Assembly: GCF_030013205.1 (NCBI RefSeq)
Contig: NZ_CP122648.1
Direction: 5' to 3' (one strand)
Origin: Escherichia coli
GTDB taxonomy: Bacteria; Pseudomonadota; Gammaproteobacteria; Enterobacterales; Enterobacteriaceae
Length of the DNA: 64,000 nt
The notes below the pieces were generated by a model, which saw only the letters and a program-made list of their open reading frames with translations, ran no database searches and was not told where the DNA came from. Below are positions 9,768-18,761 of this stretch, piece by piece (within the stretch, counting starts at the first letter, position 1; each line of letters starts with the position of its first letter). The translations under genes were made by a program, and so were the position numbers.

Positions 9768-10709
9768 ATGGCTACTATTGCGCAATCAAAGAAACAAAAA
9801 AAACTTAAAATTGGTTTTTACACCAGCAGTTCTGGGACTATCCGCAGCCATTCAGTTGCTAAGCAAGCAATTGAAAATCTGTATAATACTTGCGTAACCG
9901 TTACGAATAATCATTTTGATACCATCTATAGAAATAAAAAGTTAAAAATAGCTTTTATAAATAAAGATACAAAAGCTAAATATTTCTTCGGCTACATGTC
10001 ATGCTCACGAGAAGAGTATCTCCTTCCTTATATTGGTGATGAACACTGGAATGAGCACAACATACCACTAGATGATAAAAAATACATAGTCGAAAGAACC
10101 TATTTTTTATATTATTACGATAGTGATATTTTAATATTAACTCAAAATCATCTTGGGCCGAAAGAATCGGATTTAGCTTATCTGCTTTACAGCCAGAGTG
10201 GTAATCCTGGAAATAACTTTTCATTCCAAGCCATCTGGAAAAAAGAGAGCGTCAAAGAGCTACTTGAAACAGGAAGTACTTTGAGAAGTTGTGATATTGT
10301 CCTGGCTGCTCCCAGGAACTTTGATGCAACAAATTACCAGCTAAATAGTTCATTTTCTAAGGAACTGGTAAATATGATGGTAGGGCTGGGTGGAACACGT
10401 CTCAAGTTAAATCTAAGGGGACGTGCATCAGGGAGAGTAAAAGTCAAAGGTTATTTATCAGATCTCGTTAAGGATGGTATTAAAGAACTCCTTGAAAAAA
10501 TGCCGGGAATTGTAAAAAAAGCGGCAGTAACACAGCCCAAAAATACCGTTGAACAAAGTCTTCTTGATCAGGTACTCATTTCAGAAAAAAACATATATAC
10601 CGTTAATGGTTATGGCACTGATAGTGATGTTCTGCAAGCCATGATTTCTGCTAAAATTGATAACAATGAATACCTTAAGCAATACGATATCAGCAAAAAG
10701 AAGGTATAG
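9768..10709 (+). CDS. RexA-like protein (candidate exclusion/abortive-infection component), uncharacterised
   Basis: 313 aa, soluble, AT-rich codons; first gene of a tightly linked pair; weak recalled similarity to lambda RexA (GFY near N-terminus, GP..SDL segment). Confidence 0.45.
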   Translation: MATIAQSKKQKKLKIGFYTSSSGTIRSHSVAKQAIENLYNTCVTVTNNHFDTIYRNKKLKIAFINKDTKAKYFFGYMSCSREEYLLPYIGDEHWNEHNIPLDDKKYIVERTYFLYYYDSDILILTQNHLGPKESDLAYLLYSQSGNPGNNFSFQAIWKKESVKELLETGSTLRSCDIVLAAPRNFDATNYQLNSSFSKELVNMMVGLGGTRLKLNLRGRASGRVKVKGYLSDLVKDGIKELLEKMPGIVKKAAVTQPKNTVEQSLLDQVLISEKNIYTVNGYGTDSDVLQAMISAKIDNNEYLKQYDISKKKV

Positions 10710-10712
10710 GAT

Positions 10713-11156
10713 ATGTTATTGAAATACTTAAGAAACCTGATTGTAAGTGTTTTTTGCACCTTGTTCCTACTGAGGTATATCCCTCAGATGGGGCATGCTG
10801 ACATACTTACAGCCTCCGGGGTTATTTCAACTGTATCCGGTATTTTATTTGGTTTTATTTTAGCCACAATATCAATTTTTAGTGCTGCTAGCGAAAACTC
10901 AAATGGAATAATAAAAGCATTAAAAAACAACAACATACTTCAAGTTATTATTGTAAATCTATTAACCGCAGGTGCATCTTTAATTACGGCATGCGTTATT
11001 GCTTTGATAGCAATGTTTGCCAATGAAAAGACATTGTTACATGGAGAAAAAATAGAATTTATTTTAATTATCGAATCTTTATCTCTTCTTATCATTTCAG
11101 TAATAACTTTTGCCTTTACATGGAGAAAAGTAAACTGGATACTCCCCCACATTTAA
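10713..11156 (+). CDS. RexB-like small inner-membrane protein with four predicted TM helices
   Basis: 147 aa, four hydrophobic helices, LRYIP motif after helix 1 similar to lambda RexB (FRHYIP, as recalled); starts 3 bp after the upstream gene. Confidence 0.5.
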   Translation: MLLKYLRNLIVSVFCTLFLLRYIPQMGHADILTASGVISTVSGILFGFILATISIFSAASENSNGIIKALKNNNILQVIIVNLLTAGASLITACVIALIAMFANEKTLLHGEKIEFILIIESLSLLIISVITFAFTWRKVNWILPHI

Positions 11157-11179
11157 AAAGGGCAGAAATGCCCTTTTTT

Positions 11180-11557
11180 CTACTCCATTTCAAGTTTAAC
11201 ATCCAGCATTGAAAGGCATCCATCAATAAACCCTTCAGCCATCTGTATCTCTATACGTATCAATTTCTCATCTTTTTTGCGAGCTCTTGCAAGCTTTCTT
11301 TTCGAGATGCCATACAGGTAATGGGCCACAATCAAAGAATGCTCGTACGGTTTTCGCTTTTTAAGAAGAGCAAGACAACCTTCAATAATTAATGCATCAC
11401 TATCTGAACAAGCCTGACGTGTTTTGCTTGTATAGGGAAGAAGCCCTTTAAACCCAGCAGCTATAGGAGAATAGTCTACTCCTGAACTATCACTCGCCGC
11501 CCATGCTCCCCAACGATCCAGAACCATTTGAATATCACGCATCAACTTTCTCCACAA
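11180..11557 (-). CDS. Late-gene antiterminator Q (QuuD/QuuQ-type)
   Basis: 125 aa; MRDIQMVLDRWGAWAA... matches the N-terminus of K-12 prophage Quu proteins as recalled. Confidence 0.75.
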   Translation of the reverse strand: MWRKLMRDIQMVLDRWGAWAASDSSGVDYSPIAAGFKGLLPYTSKTRQACSDSDALIIEGCLALLKKRKPYEHSLIVAHYLYGISKRKLARARKKDEKLIRIEIQMAEGFIDGCLSMLDVKLEME

Positions 11558-11559
11558 AA

Positions 11560-12555
11560 TCAGGCCAGCACGCCAGTTGCCAGCGCACGATCGATAAAAC
11601 GAAATATCAGCTCCAGCTGGGAGCCATACCTCTCTTCAAATGTCACGGTATCCGCATGCAGCTCGTCGTGATGCTTTCTGCACAAAGGCAACACAAAAAG
11701 GTCATGCGCTTTTGTTCCCATTCCACCCTGACCGTAACCTATCAGGTGGTGGGGATCATCAGCGGGCTTTCCACAACATGCACACGGCTGTGTCTTAACC
11801 CAGCGCGTGTACTTTTCATTAACCCAGCGGCGACGTTTTGGGCGTAACATAAAAGACTCCGGCGACTCCGGATCCACTTTCAGCGCCAGCACCTTTTTCG
11901 CCTTATCCTGGATGATGCTGGTGGCAGGAACCGAAGGCACAAGGTCACTTTCCCGGGTGACAGACGGCACAACAGGCTTCGGTAATCTCAGTGCCTTACG
12001 GGCTGCACTTTCCGGTAAGGCATCCGCCAGGTCATTACGAATCAGCCACCAGCACAGTTCCGGCATTGTCACAACGTGACTGTCATCAAAACCGAGATCC
12101 CGACGCACAACAGACAACACCCAGCGGGCACAGTTATCCGTTGCCATTGATTCCAGCCGTTCCGTGAACTGATCGCGCAGCTGGTTATCGCAGTGCCAGC
12201 ACAGACGGATTGCACCCGGAGCGTGTCGCATTGTGGTCATGTTCTCGCTGTGCCAGTCGGAATGAGGCCACTGGCAGCCTTTTTTACGAAGTAACCAGCT
12301 TTCAAGACATTCCACGCCACCAGCACGACGGATCACTGCCTCATTGCGGAACACGGCCCGAACGGCAGGATCATCCGCCAGCGGTTGTGACGCCGCGGGA
12401 ACGGCACCACTGGCGAAAGATGAATAATGCTCCGGCTCAGGCTCCAGCAGGACACGCCCCTGCATAAACAGGGGCATCAGCTCTGAACCGGGCCTGAACA
12501 ATACGATCCCCATACGCGGGGCAATTTCAGGGGTCAGTAGTGCTCTCACGGTCAC
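11560..12555 (-). CDS. DUF968-family lambdoid phage protein with C-terminal HNH-like Cys/His motif
   Basis: 331 aa; C-terminal CACCGKP...HHLIGYGQGG...CRKHHDELH. Confidence 0.5.
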   Translation of the reverse strand: MTVRALLTPEIAPRMGIVLFRPGSELMPLFMQGRVLLEPEPEHYSSFASGAVPAASQPLADDPAVRAVFRNEAVIRRAGGVECLESWLLRKKGCQWPHSDWHSENMTTMRHAPGAIRLCWHCDNQLRDQFTERLESMATDNCARWVLSVVRRDLGFDDSHVVTMPELCWWLIRNDLADALPESAARKALRLPKPVVPSVTRESDLVPSVPATSIIQDKAKKVLALKVDPESPESFMLRPKRRRWVNEKYTRWVKTQPCACCGKPADDPHHLIGYGQGGMGTKAHDLFVLPLCRKHHDELHADTVTFEERYGSQLELIFRFIDRALATGVLA

Positions 12556-12556
12556 C

Positions 12557-13366
12557 TCAATGAACGGTATCGAGCAGCTTTAACAGCTCAGGGAATCGGG
12601 ATTCGAAGAAATGCGGCTGCGTCTCGCGCGGATTTGCGGGACTGGTGATGTTCTTGCCGAACATGCAGCCTTTCGCTGTCAGCGACCAGAATTTTTTGAT
12701 GTTGTTAATCGCGGTACGGCTGTATCGTTCGCGTTGTTCAACGATCCCCAGCTTCGCCATCTGGTGATATGCCTGATTAGCCGTCAGGCGGATACCATAC
12801 TGTTTCAGCAGTGCACTCAGCGACAGCGTAGGGCGACTTGAGCCATCAGGCGCGTCAGCAGGAGCATCAATGGCATAGCGCGGTGCCAGATTCGGTAAGC
12901 CAACAGCCTCCTGGAGTTTCTGACAGGCACCAAGCACTGAAGAGTTAGACAGGTTTAACTCCCTGCGCATAAAGTCCAGCAGAATCACTCCAGCCTGCAT
13001 CTTGTCAGCAGCCTGCCCGGATAATTTTTCCGGTGCGCTGGTTACCATATCGAAAGTACGGATCACCTTCAGATGGAATGACGGGCTGATCCACATTGCA
13101 TAGGCATACACCAGTTCTTTGCAGACATACGTCCCCTGGTTATTTCCGCCATTAATGACGCTAACTGGTTGATTTTGTTCCAGAGGCGGAATTCCACCCT
13201 CGGTGAAAAGTTGTTCAATCAATTCACAGGTTTGCTTATTGGAGAGCCAGTATTTCGGGCGGTTTTTTTGTTCTCCCCCGGCTGCCCTGTGCAGATCGTT
13301 CAGGCTGTAACGCCCATAAGCATCACGACGAACTTCAATACCATCAATAACCATCAGATTATTCAT
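12557..13366 (-). CDS. KilA-N domain protein (antirepressor/Roi-like)
   Basis: 269 aa; N-terminal VIDGIEVRRDAYGRYSLNDLHRAAGG...RPKYWL has the KilA-N signature. Confidence 0.6.
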   Translation of the reverse strand: MNNLMVIDGIEVRRDAYGRYSLNDLHRAAGGEQKNRPKYWLSNKQTCELIEQLFTEGGIPPLEQNQPVSVINGGNNQGTYVCKELVYAYAMWISPSFHLKVIRTFDMVTSAPEKLSGQAADKMQAGVILLDFMRRELNLSNSSVLGACQKLQEAVGLPNLAPRYAIDAPADAPDGSSRPTLSLSALLKQYGIRLTANQAYHQMAKLGIVEQRERYSRTAINNIKKFWSLTAKGCMFGKNITSPANPRETQPHFFESRFPELLKLLDTVH

Positions 13367-13385
13367 ACTTCGTTTCTCCTCTTAA

Positions 13386-13589
13386 TCAGGCGGCTGCACC
13401 CGCCGGTTTCTCATACTTACTGATAGTGATCTCGACCTTCCCTTTCGGGATAACCGGTCCCCACTCCACCAGCATTCTTTTCACCTGTCTGTCGTCTTCC
13501 CACACACCCGCGTGGGTCAGGGCGTCAAACAGCGCCTTGTTATAGTTGTCCAGATCGCGGATCCGGTTATTTGCCGTTAAACTGTTCAT
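13386..13589 (-). pseudogene. rusA: Holliday-junction resolvase RusA, C-terminal fragment (about 60 of 120 aa)
   Basis: RDLDNYNKALFDALTHAGVWEDDRQV...KGKVEITI matches the RusA C-terminal half; the N-terminal half is missing. Confidence 0.65.
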
Positions 13590-14137
13590 GCGTTAGTTTC
13601 TCCACAGACACAAAACGCCACGACGCCCGGAGCTGCACACTCGCGGGCGTCACTCTTTTCTGGAGCGCAGAAAATTTTGTAGACCAGTGCCGCATGCTCC
13701 TGGAGCTTCGAAATTGACAGATACAATTCATCATTAATTGCTGTCTGCTCGTGTGGCTCCACTACCCCATCTTCGATTGCCGAACGAATCTGCTTTGAGT
13801 AACTCCCGATCTGTTCGATGACTTCCAGCAGGCGCTGGTTTATATCTGCGTTCTCTACTTCCTCAATTTCAGGAAGCGATACAAACACCCCACCAGCAGA
13901 CTGTGCGACAGCATCCGCAATGTAGTGAGTGCCAGCAGCACGCTGTAAAATCATTGCCCATCCCAGCGGGAAAATCTGATCGCCATCTGCACGAAGGCGG
14001 TTGAATAAAGCGTTCTCTGTAACATCCAGCCACTCAGCAGCTTCAGCGTAACCCCCCGGCAACGCCGCGATAGTTTTTCTGACAGCTTTCACGTACCACT
14101 CAGGCTGTTTTTCCACTTTCCAGTGATGATTACCCAC
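13586..14137 (-). CDS. Early regulatory protein immediately downstream of cro (YdaT/CII-like position); C-terminus possibly altered by a deletion junction
   Basis: 183-aa ORF overlapping the cro stop; family assignment is by position and weak recollection only. Confidence 0.35.
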   Translation of the reverse strand: MGNHHWKVEKQPEWYVKAVRKTIAALPGGYAEAAEWLDVTENALFNRLRADGDQIFPLGWAMILQRAAGTHYIADAVAQSAGGVFVSLPEIEEVENADINQRLLEVIEQIGSYSKQIRSAIEDGVVEPHEQTAINDELYLSISKLQEHAALVYKIFCAPEKSDARECAAPGVVAFCVCGETNA

Positions 14138-14390
14138 GGCTTACCTCCTGTTCCTGTGGTTTAAACCCATTCTGGTTTTGGCTAGATTGAAAACGTGCCG
14201 GATAAAGAATCTGCATTTCGCTGATTTCACCCTTAAAAAAATTGGCCAGACGTTCTGCAAGATCGATAGATGGAATTTGTTCCAGTCTTTCAATACGACT
14301 CAGCGTCGCTGGATTGACCTGAACGCCAGCAGCAACATGCTGCAAAGTAAATCCGTGCGCCTTACGCACATTCCGTAATGGTGATTGCAT
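14130..14390 (-). CDS. cro: Cro-like HTH (XRE-family) repressor
   Basis: 86 aa with HTH (GFTLQHVAAGVQVNPATLSRIE), divergent from the cI-like gene across a 97-bp operator region. Confidence 0.75.
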   Translation of the reverse strand: MQSPLRNVRKAHGFTLQHVAAGVQVNPATLSRIERLEQIPSIDLAERLANFFKGEISEMQILYPARFQSSQNQNGFKPQEQEVSRG

Positions 14391-14487
14391 ATGACCTCCA
14401 CATATTGCGTGATGAGCATATTATTTCACGCAAATATTTTGCGCAAGTTGATTTGCTTAACGCGCAATAAAGAAATGTAATAAACGC
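14391..14487. promoter_or_regulatory. Right operator/promoter region (oR, pR, pRM) with repeated TTGC-N7-GCAA-type sites
   Basis: Sites TTGCGTGATGAGCAT (14405-14419) and TTGCTTAACGCGCAA (14453-14467), plus palindrome CGCAAATATTTTGCG between them. Confidence 0.5.
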
Positions 14488-15180
14488 ATGAACATAGGAA
14501 ACCGAGTCAGACAACTTCGCCAGGCGAAGAACATGAAAATCGCCGATCTCGCTGAAGCAATAGGAGTGGATGCGGCGAATATCTCACGCCTGGAAACAGG
14601 TAAGCAGAAACAATTCACTGAACAAGCCCTGAGTAATATTGCCAAGAGCTTAGGTGTTGATATTGCTGATCTCTTTACCTCAGACTTCAAAAGTAATACT
14701 GTATGTAAAAACAGTATTAGTGAGGATGTTGCGCAGGTGAAGGATGTATTCCGTATTGAAATGCTGGATGTCAGTGCCAGTGCGGGAAATGGCCTTATCC
14801 AGGGCGGTGATGTCATTGATGTGATTCATGCCATTGAATACAGAACTGATAATGCTGTATCGATGTTTGGTGGACGGCCAGCCAATCACATTAAAGTTAT
14901 CAACGTTCGTGGGGACAGTATGTGTCCAACCATTGAGCCAGGAGATCTCATCTTCGTTGATGTCAGTATCAATCAGTTTGATGGAGATGGTATCTATGTA
15001 TTTGGTTTTGATGATAAAATTTATGTCAAACGACTGCAAATGATACCTGACAAACTACTGGTGATTTCTGATAACCAGATTTACCGTGAATGGGGAATTA
15101 CCAGCGAAAATGAACACCGGTTTATGGTCTTTGGAAAGGTCTTAATCAGCCAGTCACAAACCCTTAAGCGACACAATTAA
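14488..15180 (+). CDS. cI: CI-like prophage repressor (HTH-XRE N-domain and S24 LexA-like peptidase C-domain)
   Basis: 230 aa; N-terminal HTH (MKIADLAEAIGVDAANISRLETGK), C-terminal ...GDSMCPTIEPGDLIFVD...YVKRL with Ser/Lys dyad pattern. Confidence 0.85.
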   Translation: MNIGNRVRQLRQAKNMKIADLAEAIGVDAANISRLETGKQKQFTEQALSNIAKSLGVDIADLFTSDFKSNTVCKNSISEDVAQVKDVFRIEMLDVSASAGNGLIQGGDVIDVIHAIEYRTDNAVSMFGGRPANHIKVINVRGDSMCPTIEPGDLIFVDVSINQFDGDGIYVFGFDDKIYVKRLQMIPDKLLVISDNQIYREWGITSENEHRFMVFGKVLISQSQTLKRHN

Positions 15181-15200
15181 CCCTTACCTCCTCATCAATT

Positions 15201-15225
15201 AGCCACCCAAAGGTGGCTTTTCATC
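15201..15225 (+). terminator. Rho-independent terminator after cI
   Basis: AGCCACC-CAAA-GGTGGCT hairpin followed by TTTTCAT. Confidence 0.55.
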
Positions 15226-15229
15226 ACCC

Positions 15230-15280
15230 TTTAAATTGCATATCTCGCAACAAAAACACTTGCATAATGCGCAACTTCAT
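15230..15280 (+). promoter_or_regulatory. Putative left operator/promoter (oL/pL)
   Basis: Two sites with the same TTGC-N7-GCAA pattern as oR: TTGCATATCTCGCAA (15236-15250) and TTGCATAATGCGCAA (15260-15274). Confidence 0.45.
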
Positions 15281-15882
15281 TTTATCTTTCTTTCCAGACA
15301 AACAAACAAGGTACTAACAAAATTTGGTTGTAACACGGCGTATGGCACATGCGTCGTTAGCGGTCTGGGGACGTTAAAGGGGACAATCCACTCCTTGCTC
15401 GGGCAAACAAACCAGGTAGCCGGAATGTGCAAGTCAATGATGATGCTGATAAGACGCCTAACCAGCGTGGCGATTCGGTTTGACGCCTGGGAAGAGACCA
15501 GGGTGCAACGATGAGGGCATTTATGGAGCCGCGACAAAGTGTGGTGCCGTAACTGGCTAAGTGCTCTCAGCGTTGTGGTAATCCGCGAAATGGCGCGGCG
15601 GTAAGTATGGCGGGGTTACTCTTTCCCCGTTGAGGACACCGGATTGTCAGGTTGACCATACGCCTGAGTGACAACCCCACCACAACAGCCACTGCTTTGG
15701 CGGTACCAGTTTGTACCCTTGCTTCCGGCTGGTACCGCTCTTTTTACAAAACAGAGAAGAGCATCACCGGACGACGAGCTCATAACCCAATCCATCCGGG
15801 CGGCTGCCACCGCAGGTGTTCTTCTCCGTTTTGTGGAGAAACCAACCGACCTTGCAGGGTCGATATGATGAGGAGCAGCAAA

Positions 15883-16245
15883 ATGGCTAGCGAACGCAGT
15901 ACTGATGTGCAGGCATTTATTGGGGAGCTGGACGGCGGCGTATTTGAAACCAAAATCGGCGCAGTTCTCAGTGAAGTCGCTTCCGGTGTGATGAACACGA
16001 AAACCAAAGGTAAGGTCTCGCTCAACCTGGAAATCGAACCGTTTGATGAGAATCGTGTGAAAATCAAACACAAACTCTCGTATGTTCGCCCGACTAACCG
16101 CGGGAAAATTTCCGAAGAAGACACCACCGAAACGCCGATGTATGTCAATCGCGGTGGTCGCCTGACTATTCTGCAGGAAGACCAGGGACAATTACTGACT
16201 CTTGCTGGTGAACCTGACGGAAAACTCCGCGCAGCAGGTCATTAA
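15883..16245 (+). CDS. YfdP-like prophage protein (CPS-53 family), 120 aa
   Basis: GAGGAG ribosome-binding site 7 nt upstream of ATG at 15883; size and position match yfdP ahead of the yfdQ/yfdR homologues. Confidence 0.5.
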   Translation: MASERSTDVQAFIGELDGGVFETKIGAVLSEVASGVMNTKTKGKVSLNLEIEPFDENRVKIKHKLSYVRPTNRGKISEEDTTETPMYVNRGGRLTILQEDQGQLLTLAGEPDGKLRAAGH

Positions 16246-16310
16246 TATCGTTCTTAATTAACTGATTATTTATCTCATCACTGAATATCTTTATATAGTG
16301 AGGACTTATT

Positions 16311-17135
16311 ATGTCTCAGAACTTAGACGCAACCGCAATTAATCAAATCCATGCCCTTATTTCTGCTCAGGGTGTTAATGAAATTATCAGTAAGATTGGT
16401 GCCGATGCTGTGGCATTGCCTGAGAATTTCCGCATTCATGATCTGGAAAAATTTAATTTAAATCGCTTCCGTTTCCGTGGTGCGCTTTCCACTGCCAGCA
16501 TCGATGACTTTACCCGTTATTCTAAAGATCTTGCAGATGAAGGCACCCGCTGCTTTATCGATGCTGATAATATGCGTGCCGTCAGTGTGCTTAACCTGGG
16601 TACTATTGATGAACCAGGTCACGCAGATAACACCGCCACTCTCAAACTGAAAAAGACAGCACCGTTCTCTGCTCTGTTGTCTGTTAATGGCGAGCGTAAC
16701 TCCCAGAAATCACTGGCAGAATGGATTGAAGACTGGGCCGACTACCTTGTGGGCTTTGATGCTAATGGTGACACCATTCAGGCAACCAAAGCGGCTGCGG
16801 CAGTCCGTAAAATCACAATTGAAGCAAACCAGACCGCTGATTTTGAAGACAATGACTTCAGCGGCAAACGCTCCCTGATGGAGTCTGTCGAAGCGAAAAC
16901 CAAAGACATTATGCCAGTGGCATTTGAATTTAAATGCGTTCCGTTTGAAGGCCTGAAAGAACGTCCGTTTAAATTACGCCTCAGCATTATCACTGGCGAT
17001 CGTCCTGTACTGGTTCTGCGCATTATTCAGCTGGAAGCGATGCAGGAAGAAATGGCTAACGAATTTCGTGATCTGCTTGTTGAGAAATTCAAAGACAGCA
17101 AAGTAGAAACCTTTATTGGTACTTTCACCGCCTGA
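16311..17135 (+). CDS. YfdQ-like protein (DUF2303), 274 aa
   Basis: Length and gene order identical to CPS-53 yfdQ; no catalytic motif recognised. Confidence 0.5.
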
Positions 17136-17263
17136 TTTCATTACTGCAAATGCCCCTGCGGGGGCATTTATGGAAACGTAATTAACTCAATAATCACCGG
17201 ATGGTGAGAGCTTCCTTTTAGCAGAATTCAGCGCGGTGCAGCGCATATAAAGTGGAGAACTAA

Positions 17264-17800
17264 ATGTCATTTATTAAAACTTTTTCCGGGAAGCATTTTT
17301 ATTATGACAAGATAAATAAAGACGACATCGTGATTAACGATATCGCAGTTTCCCTTTCAAATATCTGTCGCTTTGCAGGACATCTTTCACACTTCTACAG
17401 TGTCGCCCAGCATGCGGTGCTTTGCAGCCAGCTGGTGCCGCAGGAATTTGCTTTTGAAGCGTTAATGCATGATGCAACAGAAGCATATTGCCAGGACATC
17501 CCAGCGCCACTGAAACGACTTCTTCCTGACTATAAACGGATGGAAGAAAAAATAGACGCCGTAATCCGTGAGAAATACGGGTTACCCCCGGTTATGAGCA
17601 CGCCTGTGAAATATCCCGATCTCATCATGCTCGCAACCGAACGCCGTGATCTCGGGCTTGATGATGGCTCTTTCTGGCCTGTACTGGAAGGTATCCCGGC
17701 AACAGAGATGTTCAAAGTTATTCCACAGTCGCCAGGCCATGCCTACGGGATGTTTATGGAACGCTTTAACGAGTTATCGGAGTTACGCAAATGCGCATGA
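17264..17800 (+). CDS. YfdR-like HD-domain 5'-deoxynucleotidase, 178 aa
   Basis: HD-type metal-binding residues (...HLSHFYSVAQHAVL...MHDATEAY...); size equals K-12 YfdR. Confidence 0.6.
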   Translation: MSFIKTFSGKHFYYDKINKDDIVINDIAVSLSNICRFAGHLSHFYSVAQHAVLCSQLVPQEFAFEALMHDATEAYCQDIPAPLKRLLPDYKRMEEKIDAVIREKYGLPPVMSTPVKYPDLIMLATERRDLGLDDGSFWPVLEGIPATEMFKVIPQSPGHAYGMFMERFNELSELRKCA

Positions 17801-17834
17801 GTCTTTCAACTGCACAACCATTGGAGGGGTAGCA

Positions 17835-18029
17835 ATGAACAACTTAATGACAACTAAACAGGTCGCCGACTTCTGTGGTGTTTCAATATCAACAGTGCTT
17901 CGCTGGAACAGCATAAACCATAGAACAGGTAAGAAATATAGACCAGACTTTCCTGATCCTGATATAAAATCCTGTCCCAATAAATGGGCATCACACAAGA
18001 TTTATAGGTTTGCGGGTATTATCGAATAA
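17835..18029 (+). CDS. AlpA/Xis-family excisionase-like DNA-binding protein (TorI-like)
   Basis: 64 aa from ATG at 17835 (GGAGGGG ribosome-binding site upstream); MTTKQVADFCGVSISTVLRW is an AlpA-type HTH. Confidence 0.6.
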   Translation: MNNLMTTKQVADFCGVSISTVLRWNSINHRTGKKYRPDFPDPDIKSCPNKWASHKIYRFAGIIE

Positions 18030-18761
18030 CATTTATTTGTTTCGATGTTAGCTGACACATCTATGGCACAGAGCAAAACCGAATATGATTGTCCACTCTG
18101 TGCTAGTAGAAAACATAGATATCAACTATCCGTACCAATCTGTGAGTATAGAATAAATTAATCTGCTCGCAACTAATAGCCTCTAACAGCCAATACAGTG
18201 CCACCGATGATACAAAAAACAATACTCCAAAAAGCGTCTGGTATTGGATTGTCATTACTAGCTTCCGAGGTGAGATATGCATTAAGCCAGGTGCGCTGGA
18301 AAAGTTATGTTTCCCTAATGGAATTGCCCATGACTCAACATATTTTTTCTCTGTTGCTAGCGAATAGACCTAAAATGATAAGCACCATTAACATCAACAG
18401 CGCCCCCTTGAGCTCTTCTTTTCGGTGAAAAGCCCATCATCAACGGCGCATTGCCTAACCCGAATTCTAGCCACCTTAGCCAGTATTTACCCCCTAGATA
18501 CCAAATGCTTACCCCTCTATTTGCTCTGATAATACTTTATTGCATAATCCCTCACTACATTAGACACTGCGTCAATCCTGCCTTCTATAGCTTGTTTTAA
18601 CGCTTTCGGCACATTCCTCTGAACCAGCCCAAGATATGGCTGTTAAATTTTTACTTACATTCAAAAAAACTTTAACTTTTGCAATCAGATCATATGATGT
18701 TGTTAATGGTAATATTCTGAATCTAAAATGACTTAAGAGTTCGTAGGTTAGAGGGACATGT

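What the first reader, a model, noticed from the sequence alone, without database searches (positions are those of the whole stretch)
13386..14137. Replication module missing and rusA truncated downstream of cro
The cro-like gene is followed by one regulatory-type ORF and then directly by the C-terminal half of rusA. No O/P-like or DnaC/helicase-loader-like replication genes are present, and the last residues of the 183-aa ORF look like run-on sequence. This is a second internal deletion, so the prophage keeps its repressor switch but cannot replicate.
Basis: partly seen in the sequence, partly recalled or inferred. Interest (0 to 1): 0.35.

Follow-up and report, generated by a model that had tools for sequence, protein, structure and literature searches.

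The report
Prophage deletion scar at recurrent breakpoint
A decaying E. coli prophage has lost 3.8 kb holding its replication genes and origin, which is ordinary, but the cut inside the rusA gene falls on one exact spot where dozens of unrelated prophages are also broken, which is unexplained.

Summary
On the minus strand, cro-like (14130-14390) is followed by the 183-aa ORF (13586-14137) and then a 67-aa ORF carrying only RusA residues 70-129 (13386-13589).

Intact relatives (phage mEp460; the ETEC1738 prophage at the same yjjG site) carry 3,837 bp more here. That stretch holds Rha/Ash, a 74-aa gene, the replication initiator with an internal repeat array (candidate origin), PerC-like, Dam, LexA-like and the rusA 5' half. 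None of it occurs elsewhere in the window.

The junction is a 7-bp microhomology (13564-13570). It fuses rha codons 1-8 in frame to rusA.

One detail is wrong. The 183-aa ORF is an intact YmfL, a CII-like regulator. Its tail is conserved across genera, and it is not a replication initiator.

Unexpected result: the rusA end point is not random. It lies on the central TA of the near-palindrome TCCGGATAACCGGA. I verified 13 further independent deletions at that TA at DNA level, running in both directions. About 40 distinct fusion ORFs in public data break there too, against 1-3 at any other rusA position.

The scar is ordinary prophage decay. The hotspot is real, and its cause is unresolved.

The parts
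14488..15180 (+). cI-like repressor (HTH plus S24 self-cleaving peptidase), intact
   Evidence: Pfam Peptidase_S24 6.5e-19 and HTH families; annotated as an XRE-family regulator in the same position in sister genomes
14391..14487 (.). Divergent cI/cro control region with two operator-like palindromes (14405-14433 TTGCGTGA..TCACGCAA; 14438-14469)
   Evidence: Inverted repeats found; function inferred from position only
14130..14390 (-). cro-like HTH gene, intact
   Evidence: Pfam HTH_3 5.8e-10; same protein (WP_001191669.1) in the intact ETEC1738 prophage
13586..14137 (-). ymfL, a CII-like regulator of 183 aa, intact and not truncated
   Evidence: Pfam PF06892 and PHROG 101 'CII-like transcriptional activator' 1.1e-72. 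Identical in intact relatives. Tail conserved. The AF2 model's eight best PDB fold matches are all phage 186 regulator entries (6VLI, 6VPE, 6VMH)
13571..13589 (-). 5' remnant of the rha/ash gene: its start codon (ATGA overlap with the ymfL stop) and first codons
   Evidence: Identical to the start of the 383-aa Rha gene in W13-16, ETEC1738 and mEp460
13564..13570 (.). Deletion junction: 7-bp microhomology CGGTTAT (coding strand ATAACCG), present once here and twice, 3,837 bp apart, in the intact prophage
   Evidence: blastn overlap and direct sequence comparison
13386..13563 (-). 3' remnant of rusA (residues 71-129 plus stop). It keeps the residues that align with the catalytic Asp triad of E. 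coli RusA but lacks the N-terminal 69 residues
   Evidence: Pfam positions 76-123 of 124; alignment of the intact homologue to PDB 1Q8R; PGAP marks it 'incomplete, missing N-terminus'. Which residues are catalytic is from memory (Bolt et al. 1999)
13386..13589 (-). Chimeric in-frame ORF Rha(1-8)::RusA(70-129), 67 aa; probably an inert by-product
   Evidence: Translation compared with the parental proteins
11180..13366 (-). Retained downstream genes now brought next to ymfL: KilA-N (12557-13366), DUF968/HNH (11560-12555), antiterminator Q (11180-11557)
   Evidence: Pfam and PHROG hits; same order in mEp460 and ETEC1738
13445..13458 (+). Second, weaker copy of the hotspot palindrome (TCGGGATAACCGGT) inside the retained rusA part; not itself a hotspot
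   Evidence: Pattern search; end-point distributions

Best explanation
The interval is the scar of an internal deletion in a defective mEp460/SfV-type lambdoid prophage (e14-like ymfL immunity region) integrated next to yjjG.

Shown: relative to an intact prophage at the same chromosomal site, 3,837 bp are missing. Relative to the nearest sister allele (W13-16), 1,524 bp are missing. The lost DNA held rha/ash, a 74-aa gene, the single O-like/DnaD-like replication initiator with its internal 21-24-bp repeat array, a PerC-like gene, a Dam methylase, a LexA-DBD gene and rusA codons 1-69. The two ends were joined at a 7-bp direct repeat (ATAACCG), leaving an in-frame rha'-'rusA ORF of 67 aa directly after an undamaged ymfL.

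Inferred: the element can still set its cI/cro/YmfL switch and may still transcribe through KilA-N, DUF968 and Q. It cannot initiate its own replication.

Shown: the rusA end point is a recurrent, nucleotide-precise break site, the central TA of TCCGGATAACCGGA.

Inferred: DNA is repeatedly broken, or a nascent strand released, at that TA. One end stays intact, the other is lost over a variable distance, and the ends are joined where a TA (often with a few more matching bases) is available. The agent that makes this site special is not identified.
For: Deletion and content:
- The window is collinear with W13-16 at 99.98% identity apart from a 1,524-bp gap.
- It maps to ETEC1738 positions 6634-10463. 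The gene content of that interval comes from annotation, Pfam and PHROGs.
- The initiator matches PHROG 270 'replication initiation protein' at 2e-88. It contains 4-5 repeats of 21-24 bp, and these are absent from the window.
- No other copy of any deleted gene is in the window.

Junction: sequences. The allele is present in 5 of 5,426 complete genomes, all from swine.

YmfL is not an initiator.

Independence of alleles: the W13-16 and ETEC4073 deletions are not nested. Three SNPs group the window with W13-16 against ETEC4073.

Hotspot:
- Five more upstream deletions end at the same TA (ETEC4073, EC130, L012 cro-fusion, L013 Dam-fusion, L014). One more ends 2 nt away (Res13).
- Eight loci carry downstream deletions that keep RusA 1-69; two of the loci (L015/L016) share one junction.
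- 14-15 distinct X|NRIRDLDNYN fusions and 25 distinct VLFPPD|X fusions are in the protein collection, against 1-3 at any other rusA position.
- Wherever the partner's intact sequence was available, a TA aligns with the hub TA (10 of 10).
Against: Replication incompetence is inferred from gene and repeat loss, not measured. That the repeat array is the origin rests only on analogy with lambda ori lying inside gene O.

Whether the window allele arose from an intact ancestor or from a W13-16-like intermediate cannot be decided; both need the same number of events.

Hotspot caveats:
- The protein searches returned only proteins of about 120 aa or less, so they see only short, in-frame fusions.
- Many hits come from short-read or metagenome assemblies.
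- One downstream junction (L017, into Q) shows TG rather than TA in the only reference allele available.
- The predicted hairpin at the site is not unusually stable (z = -1.1 to -1.7), so secondary structure alone is a weak cause.
- Hub-broken copies are a small minority of the 2,967 copies of this rusA allele in complete genomes.
Confidence: 0.85

Rival explanations
1. Ordinary random microhomology slippage with no special site. The shared rusA end point would then reflect ascertainment, or selection for removing the replication module from a prophage that cannot excise productively (escape from 'replicative killing').
For: Replication genes are preferentially lost from incomplete prophages (PMC7744054). 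Induction of a trapped lambda prophage kills through in situ replication and selects replication-defective survivors (PMC6022878). At least two, and possibly three, independent deletions in 99.9%-identical sister prophages all disable the initiator. The window junction uses a 7-bp repeat.
Against: Selection cannot fix an end point to one dinucleotide. L013 uses the same end point and leaves the initiator intact. Deletions also run downstream from the same TA into Q, terminase or baseplate genes. Several junctions share only TA. The spike is 14-25 junctions against 1-3 elsewhere.
Confidence: 0.1
2. The arrangement is a natural mosaic variant of the phage rather than a deletion, and the 67-aa ORF is a genuine short gene.
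For: Lambdoid phages are highly mosaic. The ORF is in frame and inherits a translationally coupled start (ATGA overlap with ymfL).
Against: Its first 8 codons are the start of rha and the rest is the 3' 46% of rusA. One copy of a 7-bp repeat sits at the joint. It covers only positions 76-123 of the 124-position RusA model. 99.98%-identical relatives carry the intervening DNA. All phage-collection records inspected have the full interval.
Confidence: 0.02
3. The 183-aa ORF (YmfL) is a non-canonical replication initiator, so the prophage can still replicate.
For: None found. The protein has an N-terminal helical DNA-binding-like domain, as many initiators do.
Against: Pfam CII family and PHROG 'CII-like transcriptional activator'. 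The eight best fold matches are all the phage 186 regulator. Every intact relative has ymfL plus a separate initiator gene. The repeat array is absent from the window. ymfL overexpression gave no filamentation phenotype in K-12, so it is not the sfiC division inhibitor (bioRxiv 10.1101/2020.11.19.390815).
Confidence: 0.02
4. The hotspot is the pseudo-site of a conservative site-specific recombinase, for example the Gin/Pin-type invertase these prophages encode. It would recombine with secondary sites that share the central dinucleotide.
For: The obligatory 2-nt TA identity and a dyad-symmetric site are what serine recombinases need. An invertase gene (Resolvase plus HTH_7) lies in the same prophage family. 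From memory: Cin quasi-sites are selected by their central dinucleotide.
Against: All 14 DNA-level events are deletions in direct orientation and no inversion was seen. By eye, the site does not resemble my recalled gix/pix/hix consensus with TA at the centre. Partner sites share little beyond TA. Neither partner is a genuine inversion site.
Confidence: 0.1

Closest known systems
Early-right operon of phage mEp460 (JQ182728) and SfV/ST64B/cdtI-type phages
   Same: Same genes in the same order on both sides of the scar: cI, cro, ymfL-like gp40, then KilA-N, DUF968 and Q. Identity is 97-98%.
   Different: mEp460 keeps the 4-kb interval (Rha, gp42, replication protein, gp44, Dam, LexA-DBD, RusA) and forms plaques. 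The window element lacks it and also lacks the head and tail genes.
E. coli K-12 e14 prophage immunity region (cohE-croE-ymfL-ymfM)
   Same: The ymfL family protein (about 88% identity to an E. coli protein named YmfL in the collection) sits directly after a cro-like gene next to an S24 repressor.
   Different: From memory: e14 has ymfM and oweE after ymfL, not rha, and sits in icd. Here there is no ymfM, and the neighbouring genes are of the mEp460 type.
Replication-defective (RK-) survivors of non-excisable lambda prophages
   Same: Loss of initiator and origin in a trapped prophage that keeps its repressor. Repeated independent losses in sister lineages fit that selection (PMC6022878).
   Different: Those were laboratory selections. 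Here selection is only inferred, and it does not explain the nucleotide-precise end point.
Hotspots of illegitimate recombination in E. coli (lambda bio formation; gyrase cleavage at REP/BIME-2)
   Same: A fixed, sequence-defined break point joined to variable partners through very short homology. The hub shares CCGGATAA with REP elements. Gyrase prefers loops of REP hairpins (PMC6379681). The 4-nt loop ATAA equals the gyrase stagger.
   Different: No gyrase data exist for this site. It lies inside a phage coding sequence rather than in an intergenic REP. The strict TA requirement is not a known gyrase feature. The lambda bio comparison is from memory.
Homing-endonuclease targets in phage genes
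   Same: A unique, long, pseudo-palindromic site in the part of a conserved gene that codes for its catalytic motif, inside a recombination-prone phage region. An HNH-domain gene (DUF968) lies 1 kb away (PMC4118853).
   Different: No endonuclease has been linked to the site. The broken alleles sit beside the HNH gene rather than lacking it. Nothing was tested.

Membership tests
Defective lambdoid prophage carrying an internal deletion | Collinear with an intact relative on both sides of a gap, with truncated genes at the joint | tested here: met
   Window against W13-16, ETEC1738 and mEp460; rha 5' and rusA 3' remnants at the joint
Defective lambdoid prophage carrying an internal deletion | Loss of functions needed for autonomous propagation | tested here: met
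   Initiator gene and its repeat array absent. Head and tail genes also deleted. Loss of function itself was not measured
Short-homology (microhomology) illegitimate deletion | A short direct repeat at both end points in the parent and one copy in the product | tested here: met
   ATAACCG at ETEC1738 6627-6633 and 10464-10470; a single copy at window 13564-13570
RusA Holliday-junction resolvase (PF05866) | Complete domain of about 120 aa including the N-terminal half | tested here: not met
   Only model positions 76-123 of 124 are present; residues 1-69 are absent
RusA Holliday-junction resolvase (PF05866) | Catalytic aspartates (D70, D72, D91 of E. coli RusA, from memory) | tested here: met
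   The aligned D-L-D and E-D-D motifs are retained in the fragment. This is not sufficient for activity
Phage CII-like regulators (PF06892, YmfL family) | Profile match above the curated cut-off over the whole domain | tested here: met
   55.4 bits against 26, profile positions 5-141 of 146; PHROG 101 at 1.1e-72
Phage CII-like regulators (PF06892, YmfL family) | Fold like phage 186 CII | tested here: inconclusive
   The eight best Foldseek hits are all the phage 186 regulator. However, E = 6e-3, TM is 0.38-0.46 for the full length (0.69-0.70 for the N-terminal domain), and the model's pLDDT is 70
Phage CII-like regulators (PF06892, YmfL family) | Activates a lysogeny promoter | not testable with these tools
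   No experiment was possible. The literature only excludes a role in filamentation
Phage replication initiators (O-like HTH_36 / DnaD-like) | The 183-aa ORF matches initiator profiles or carries an origin repeat array | tested here: not met
   No initiator family hit. The true initiator is a separate 272-aa gene in relatives, with the repeats inside it
Site-specific break or recombination site | The same phosphodiester region used in many independent events | tested here: met
   14 DNA-level junctions, including the window, plus about 40 distinct fusion ORFs at rusA codon 69/70
Site-specific break or recombination site | Dyad-symmetric recognition sequence centred on the break | tested here: met
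   TCCGGATAACCGGA is symmetric at 12 of 14 positions about the TA, by direct reading of the sequence printed; the flanking TCCGGA and CGGATCCG palindromes were found
Site-specific break or recombination site | An identified enzyme acting at the site | not tested
   The candidates (nuclease, type II topoisomerase, invertase) are only conjectured

The most novel reading that the evidence does not exclude
The central TA of TCCGGATAACCGGA in lambdoid rusA is the target of a dedicated DNA-breaking activity. Candidates are a homing-type or restriction-like endonuclease, a strong type II topoisomerase site, or a site-specific nick converted into a one-ended break by replication. This activity would repeatedly trigger one-sided deletions and so act as a previously unrecognised driver of prophage 'grounding' in E. 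coli.
Probability: 0.35. Interest if true: 0.7.

Novelty: new variant of a known kind. Interest (0 to 1): 0.4.

Why it matters
The scar itself is routine prophage decay. It matters only for annotation: the element should be called replication-defective, ymfL intact, and rusA a pseudogene fused to a rha remnant.

The recurrent end point is the part worth attention. This rusA allele is present in 2,296 of 5,426 complete E. coli genomes. If a specific activity breaks it at one dinucleotide, then part of prophage erosion in E. coli is site-directed rather than random. That would explain why truncated rusA and missing replication or late modules recur. It would also give a short, clonable sequence on which the mechanism of end joining or template switching in E. 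coli could be tested directly.

Tried and rejected
The informative relatives came from similarity searches. K-12 RusA aligns only at protein level.
- PDB sequence search with YmfL: no hit at E below 1. The fold search was needed instead.
- Rfam over 9000-22000: nothing.
- Promoter and terminator scan: counts close to shuffled expectation, so not used.
- Deriving the window allele from the ETEC4073 allele to explain the shared rusA end: rejected. Three SNPs group the window with W13-16, which keeps rusA sequence that ETEC4073 lacks.
- In-frame selection as the cause of the shared end: rejected. The W13-16 and EC130 junctions are out of frame or create a stop.
- Chi protection: a Chi sequence lies 95 bp downstream on the coding strand. 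By my reading of the orientation rule (from memory), it faces the wrong way to protect the retained end.
- Hairpin stability: the hub sits in the loop of a 5-bp hairpin, but the energy is unremarkable.
- Invertase pseudo-site: no convincing resemblance to my recalled gix/pix consensus, and no inversions.
- Satellite integration into prophage genes (bioRxiv 10.1101/2022.07.18.500453): rusA is not mentioned among the targets.
- Intact partner for the L015 junction: no match in the phage collection.
- Literature search for a rusA hotspot: nothing relevant among the 12 papers listed.

Full report
**What is at 13386-14137**

All relevant genes are on the minus strand.
- A cro-like HTH gene (14130-14390) faces a cI-like HTH/S24 repressor (14488-15180, plus strand) across a 97-bp region with two operator-like palindromes.
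- Next comes a 183-aa ORF (13586-14137). It matches the Pfam family Phage_CP76/CII at 55.4 bits (cut-off 26) and PHROG 101, 'CII-like transcriptional activator'.
- Its stop codon overlaps, as ATGA, the start of a 67-aa ORF (13386-13589). That ORF matches only positions 76-123 of the 124-position RusA model.
- KilA-N (12557-13366), DUF968/HNH (11560-12555) and antiterminator Q (11180-11557) follow.

**What is missing**

The window is E. coli chromosome. The element is a prophage next to yjjG with an integrase at about 20053-21276. The region matches five complete swine E. coli genomes at 100% (K_EC180, ETEC1748, ETEC4067, ETEC4069, ETEC4079).

The same prophage in strain W13-16 is 99.98% identical on both sides. 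It carries 1,524 bp more between ymfL and the rusA remnant.

A prophage at the same site in ETEC1738, and the viable phage mEp460, carry the complete interval:
- ymfL
- Rha/Ash regulator (383 aa)
- a 74-aa gene
- a 272-aa replication initiator (HTH_36 plus a DnaD-like C-terminal part; PHROG 270 at 2e-88)
- a PerC-like gene
- Dam methylase
- a LexA-DBD protein
- RusA (129 aa)
- KilA-N

The initiator gene contains 4-5 repeats of 21-24 bp in its middle. By analogy with lambda ori lying inside gene O, this is the likely origin; that step is an inference.

Mapped on ETEC1738, the window lacks positions 6634-10463, which is 3,837 bp. tblastn with all seven proteins finds only RusA 69-129 anywhere in the 64 kb. 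The repeat motif is absent at up to three mismatches. The space between ymfL and KilA-N is 219 bp instead of 4,056 bp.

**The junction**

On the coding strand:
- rha reads ...GGCAAATAACCG|TTTGTC
- rusA reads ...CCGGATAACCG|GATCCGCG
- the window reads ...GGCAAATAACCGGATCCGCG

One copy of a 7-bp direct repeat therefore remains at 13564-13570. The product is an in-frame fusion of rha codons 1-8 to rusA codons 70-129.

The fusion inherits rha's translationally coupled start. It retains the residues that align with the catalytic aspartates of E. coli RusA (their identity is from memory). It lacks the N-terminal 69 residues, and PGAP calls it a pseudogene. I regard it as an inert by-product, although it may well be translated.

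**The 183-aa ORF is intact and is not an initiator**

The protein is the same accession (WP_000526665.1) in prophages that are undeleted in this interval. It is 97-98% identical to mEp460 gp40 along its whole length.

In an alignment of 25 family members from several genera, the tail FCxPEKSDARECAAPG...GETNA is conserved, with two invariant cysteines. The 'run-on' impression is therefore wrong, and the junction lies beyond the stop codon.

An AlphaFold model (pLDDT 70) is all-helical with a confident N-terminal domain. Its eight best PDB fold matches are all crystal structures of the phage 186 regulator. The scores are modest.

Every intact relative has a separate initiator gene.

**History**

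Three near-identical (99.9% or more) sister prophages carry three different deletions here:

| Allele | Positions lost (ETEC1738 coordinates) | Junction |
|---|---|---|
| window | 6634-10463 | in frame |
| W13-16 | 6701-9000 | out of frame |
| ETEC4073 | 6633-8472 | in-frame Rep(1-216)::RusA |

Source.
- The W13-16 and ETEC4073 deletions each retain DNA that the other lacks, so they are independent.
- Three SNPs group the window with W13-16 against ETEC4073 and the outgroup. The window event is therefore independent of the ETEC4073 event.
- It may have started from an intact ancestor or from a W13-16-like one; the event counts are equal.
- The late region shows the same pattern of lineage-private deletions.

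Repeated loss of the initiator fits the known preferential loss of replication genes from incomplete prophages (PMC7744054). It also fits the lethality of in situ replication of a trapped prophage (PMC6022878). Selection here is inferred, not shown.

**The unexpected part: a recurrent break point**

The window and ETEC4073 deletions end within 1 bp of each other in rusA. A divergent prophage in strain EC130 (flank only 85% identical) ends there too.

I followed this up by searching the protein collection with each half of RusA and aligning the hits to intact RusA.
- 14-15 distinct fusion ORFs have a RusA part that starts exactly at N70. Their upstream partners differ: Rep 1-15, Rep 1-27, cro 1-41, Dam 1-52, PerC-like 1-53, the 74-aa gene, an alternative Rep, and others.
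- 25 distinct ORFs keep RusA 1-69 and continue into unrelated sequence.
- Any other rusA position has 1-3.

DNA recovered for a sample confirms real deletions in direct orientation.
- Upstream deletions: cro (L012), Dam (L013, where the initiator is intact) and the 74-aa gene (L014).
- Downstream deletions: into Q (L017), terminase (L018), Mu-like tail genes (L015/L016, L021, L022), an unidentified partner (L023), and one near an IS66 (L025).
- One junction, in six Res13 genomes, is displaced by 2 nt.

The common crossover interval is the TA of GGA-TA-ACC. In all ten cases where the partner's intact sequence is known, a TA aligns with it, sometimes with no further homology. One further case, L017, is uncertain.

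The TA is the centre of TCCGGATAACCGGA, which is symmetric at 12 of 14 positions. It is also the middle of the ATAA loop of a small predicted hairpin, whose stability is unremarkable.

This rusA allele occurs in 2,296 of 5,426 complete genomes. Broken copies are a minority.

**What could cause it**

The pattern is one end exact, the other variable, both directions, deletions only, and an obligatory TA. This points to a break or strand release at the TA, followed by one-sided loss and TA-anchored joining.

Candidates:
- A site-specific endonuclease or nickase. The site is long, nearly palindromic and encodes the catalytic motif, as homing-endonuclease targets often do. An HNH gene lies 1 kb away (PMC4118853).
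- A strong type II topoisomerase site. The hub shares CCGGATAA with REP elements, gyrase prefers REP loops (PMC6379681), and a 4-nt loop equals the gyrase stagger.
- Polymerase template switching at the hairpin.
- A serine-recombinase pseudo-site. This is less likely, because no inversion was seen and the site does not resemble known invertase sites.

I could not discriminate further. No report of this hotspot turned up among the 12 papers listed by my one literature search.

**Verdict**

The finding is a correctly read, ordinary deletion scar in a decaying prophage, with one wrong detail (the YmfL tail). Its rusA end point exposes a recurrent, nucleotide-precise break site that I cannot explain and that deserves a proper census and an experiment.

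Noticed in passing
window 5076-5078 (late region, about 3000-6200): A second private deletion of this lineage. Relative to W13-16, 3,316 bp are missing between a terminase-large remnant and the J gene, joined at a 3-bp overlap. W13-16 and ETEC4073 each have different deletions in the same module.
   Followed up: partly
window 8986 (ORFs 8973-9596 and neighbours): A T8-to-T7 change relative to W13-16 frameshifts an AraC-family regulator gene that is intact (852 bp) in W13-16, ETEC4073 and ETEC1738.
   Followed up: partly
window 13466-13473: A Chi sequence (GCTGGTGG on the coding, minus strand) lies inside the retained rusA remnant, about 95 bp from the junction. By my reading of the orientation rule, it would not protect the retained end.
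   Followed up: partly
window 13445-13458: A second, imperfect copy of the hotspot palindrome (TCGGGATAACCGGT) lies 110 bp downstream of the hub position. About 0.26 such matches are expected in the whole window. No excess of break points was seen there.
   Followed up: partly
window 13586-13670 (YmfL residues 157-183): The YmfL C-terminal tail is predicted to be disordered (pLDDT about 30), yet it is strongly conserved, with two invariant cysteines and a terminal GETNA. It may be a degradation or metal-binding tail.
   Followed up: no
L002 7538-7553; L009, L006, L010; proteins P0138, P0140: Other end points are also reused with different partners: rep codon 39/40 (W13-16 and EC130); a site in the LexA-like gene, GGA|TACCGTTC (LZHX12 and PCP06173); and an alt-Rep ...RRQG| end joined either to that site or to the rusA hub. 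This may reflect sequential deletions among GGATA(A)CCG-like sequences.
   Followed up: partly
window 18042-18046: W13-16 carries an IS3-family insertion (1,331 bp) at this point. The window has the empty site.
   Followed up: no
window 9768-11156: Between Q and the lysis genes sit a DUF6731 protein (313 aa) and a 147-aa predicted membrane protein on the opposite strand. This is moron-like cargo of unknown function.
   Followed up: no
window 18762-19781: A DUF4365 gene is full length (339 aa) here, but is annotated as only 399 bp in K_EC180. The window therefore differs from that otherwise identical genome at this point.
   Followed up: no
window 24353-24476 and 58928-58940: REP-type elements containing G(C/T)CGGATAAGGCG lie in the chromosomal part of the window. 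They share the octamer CCGGATAA, or a near match, with the rusA hotspot.
   Followed up: partly
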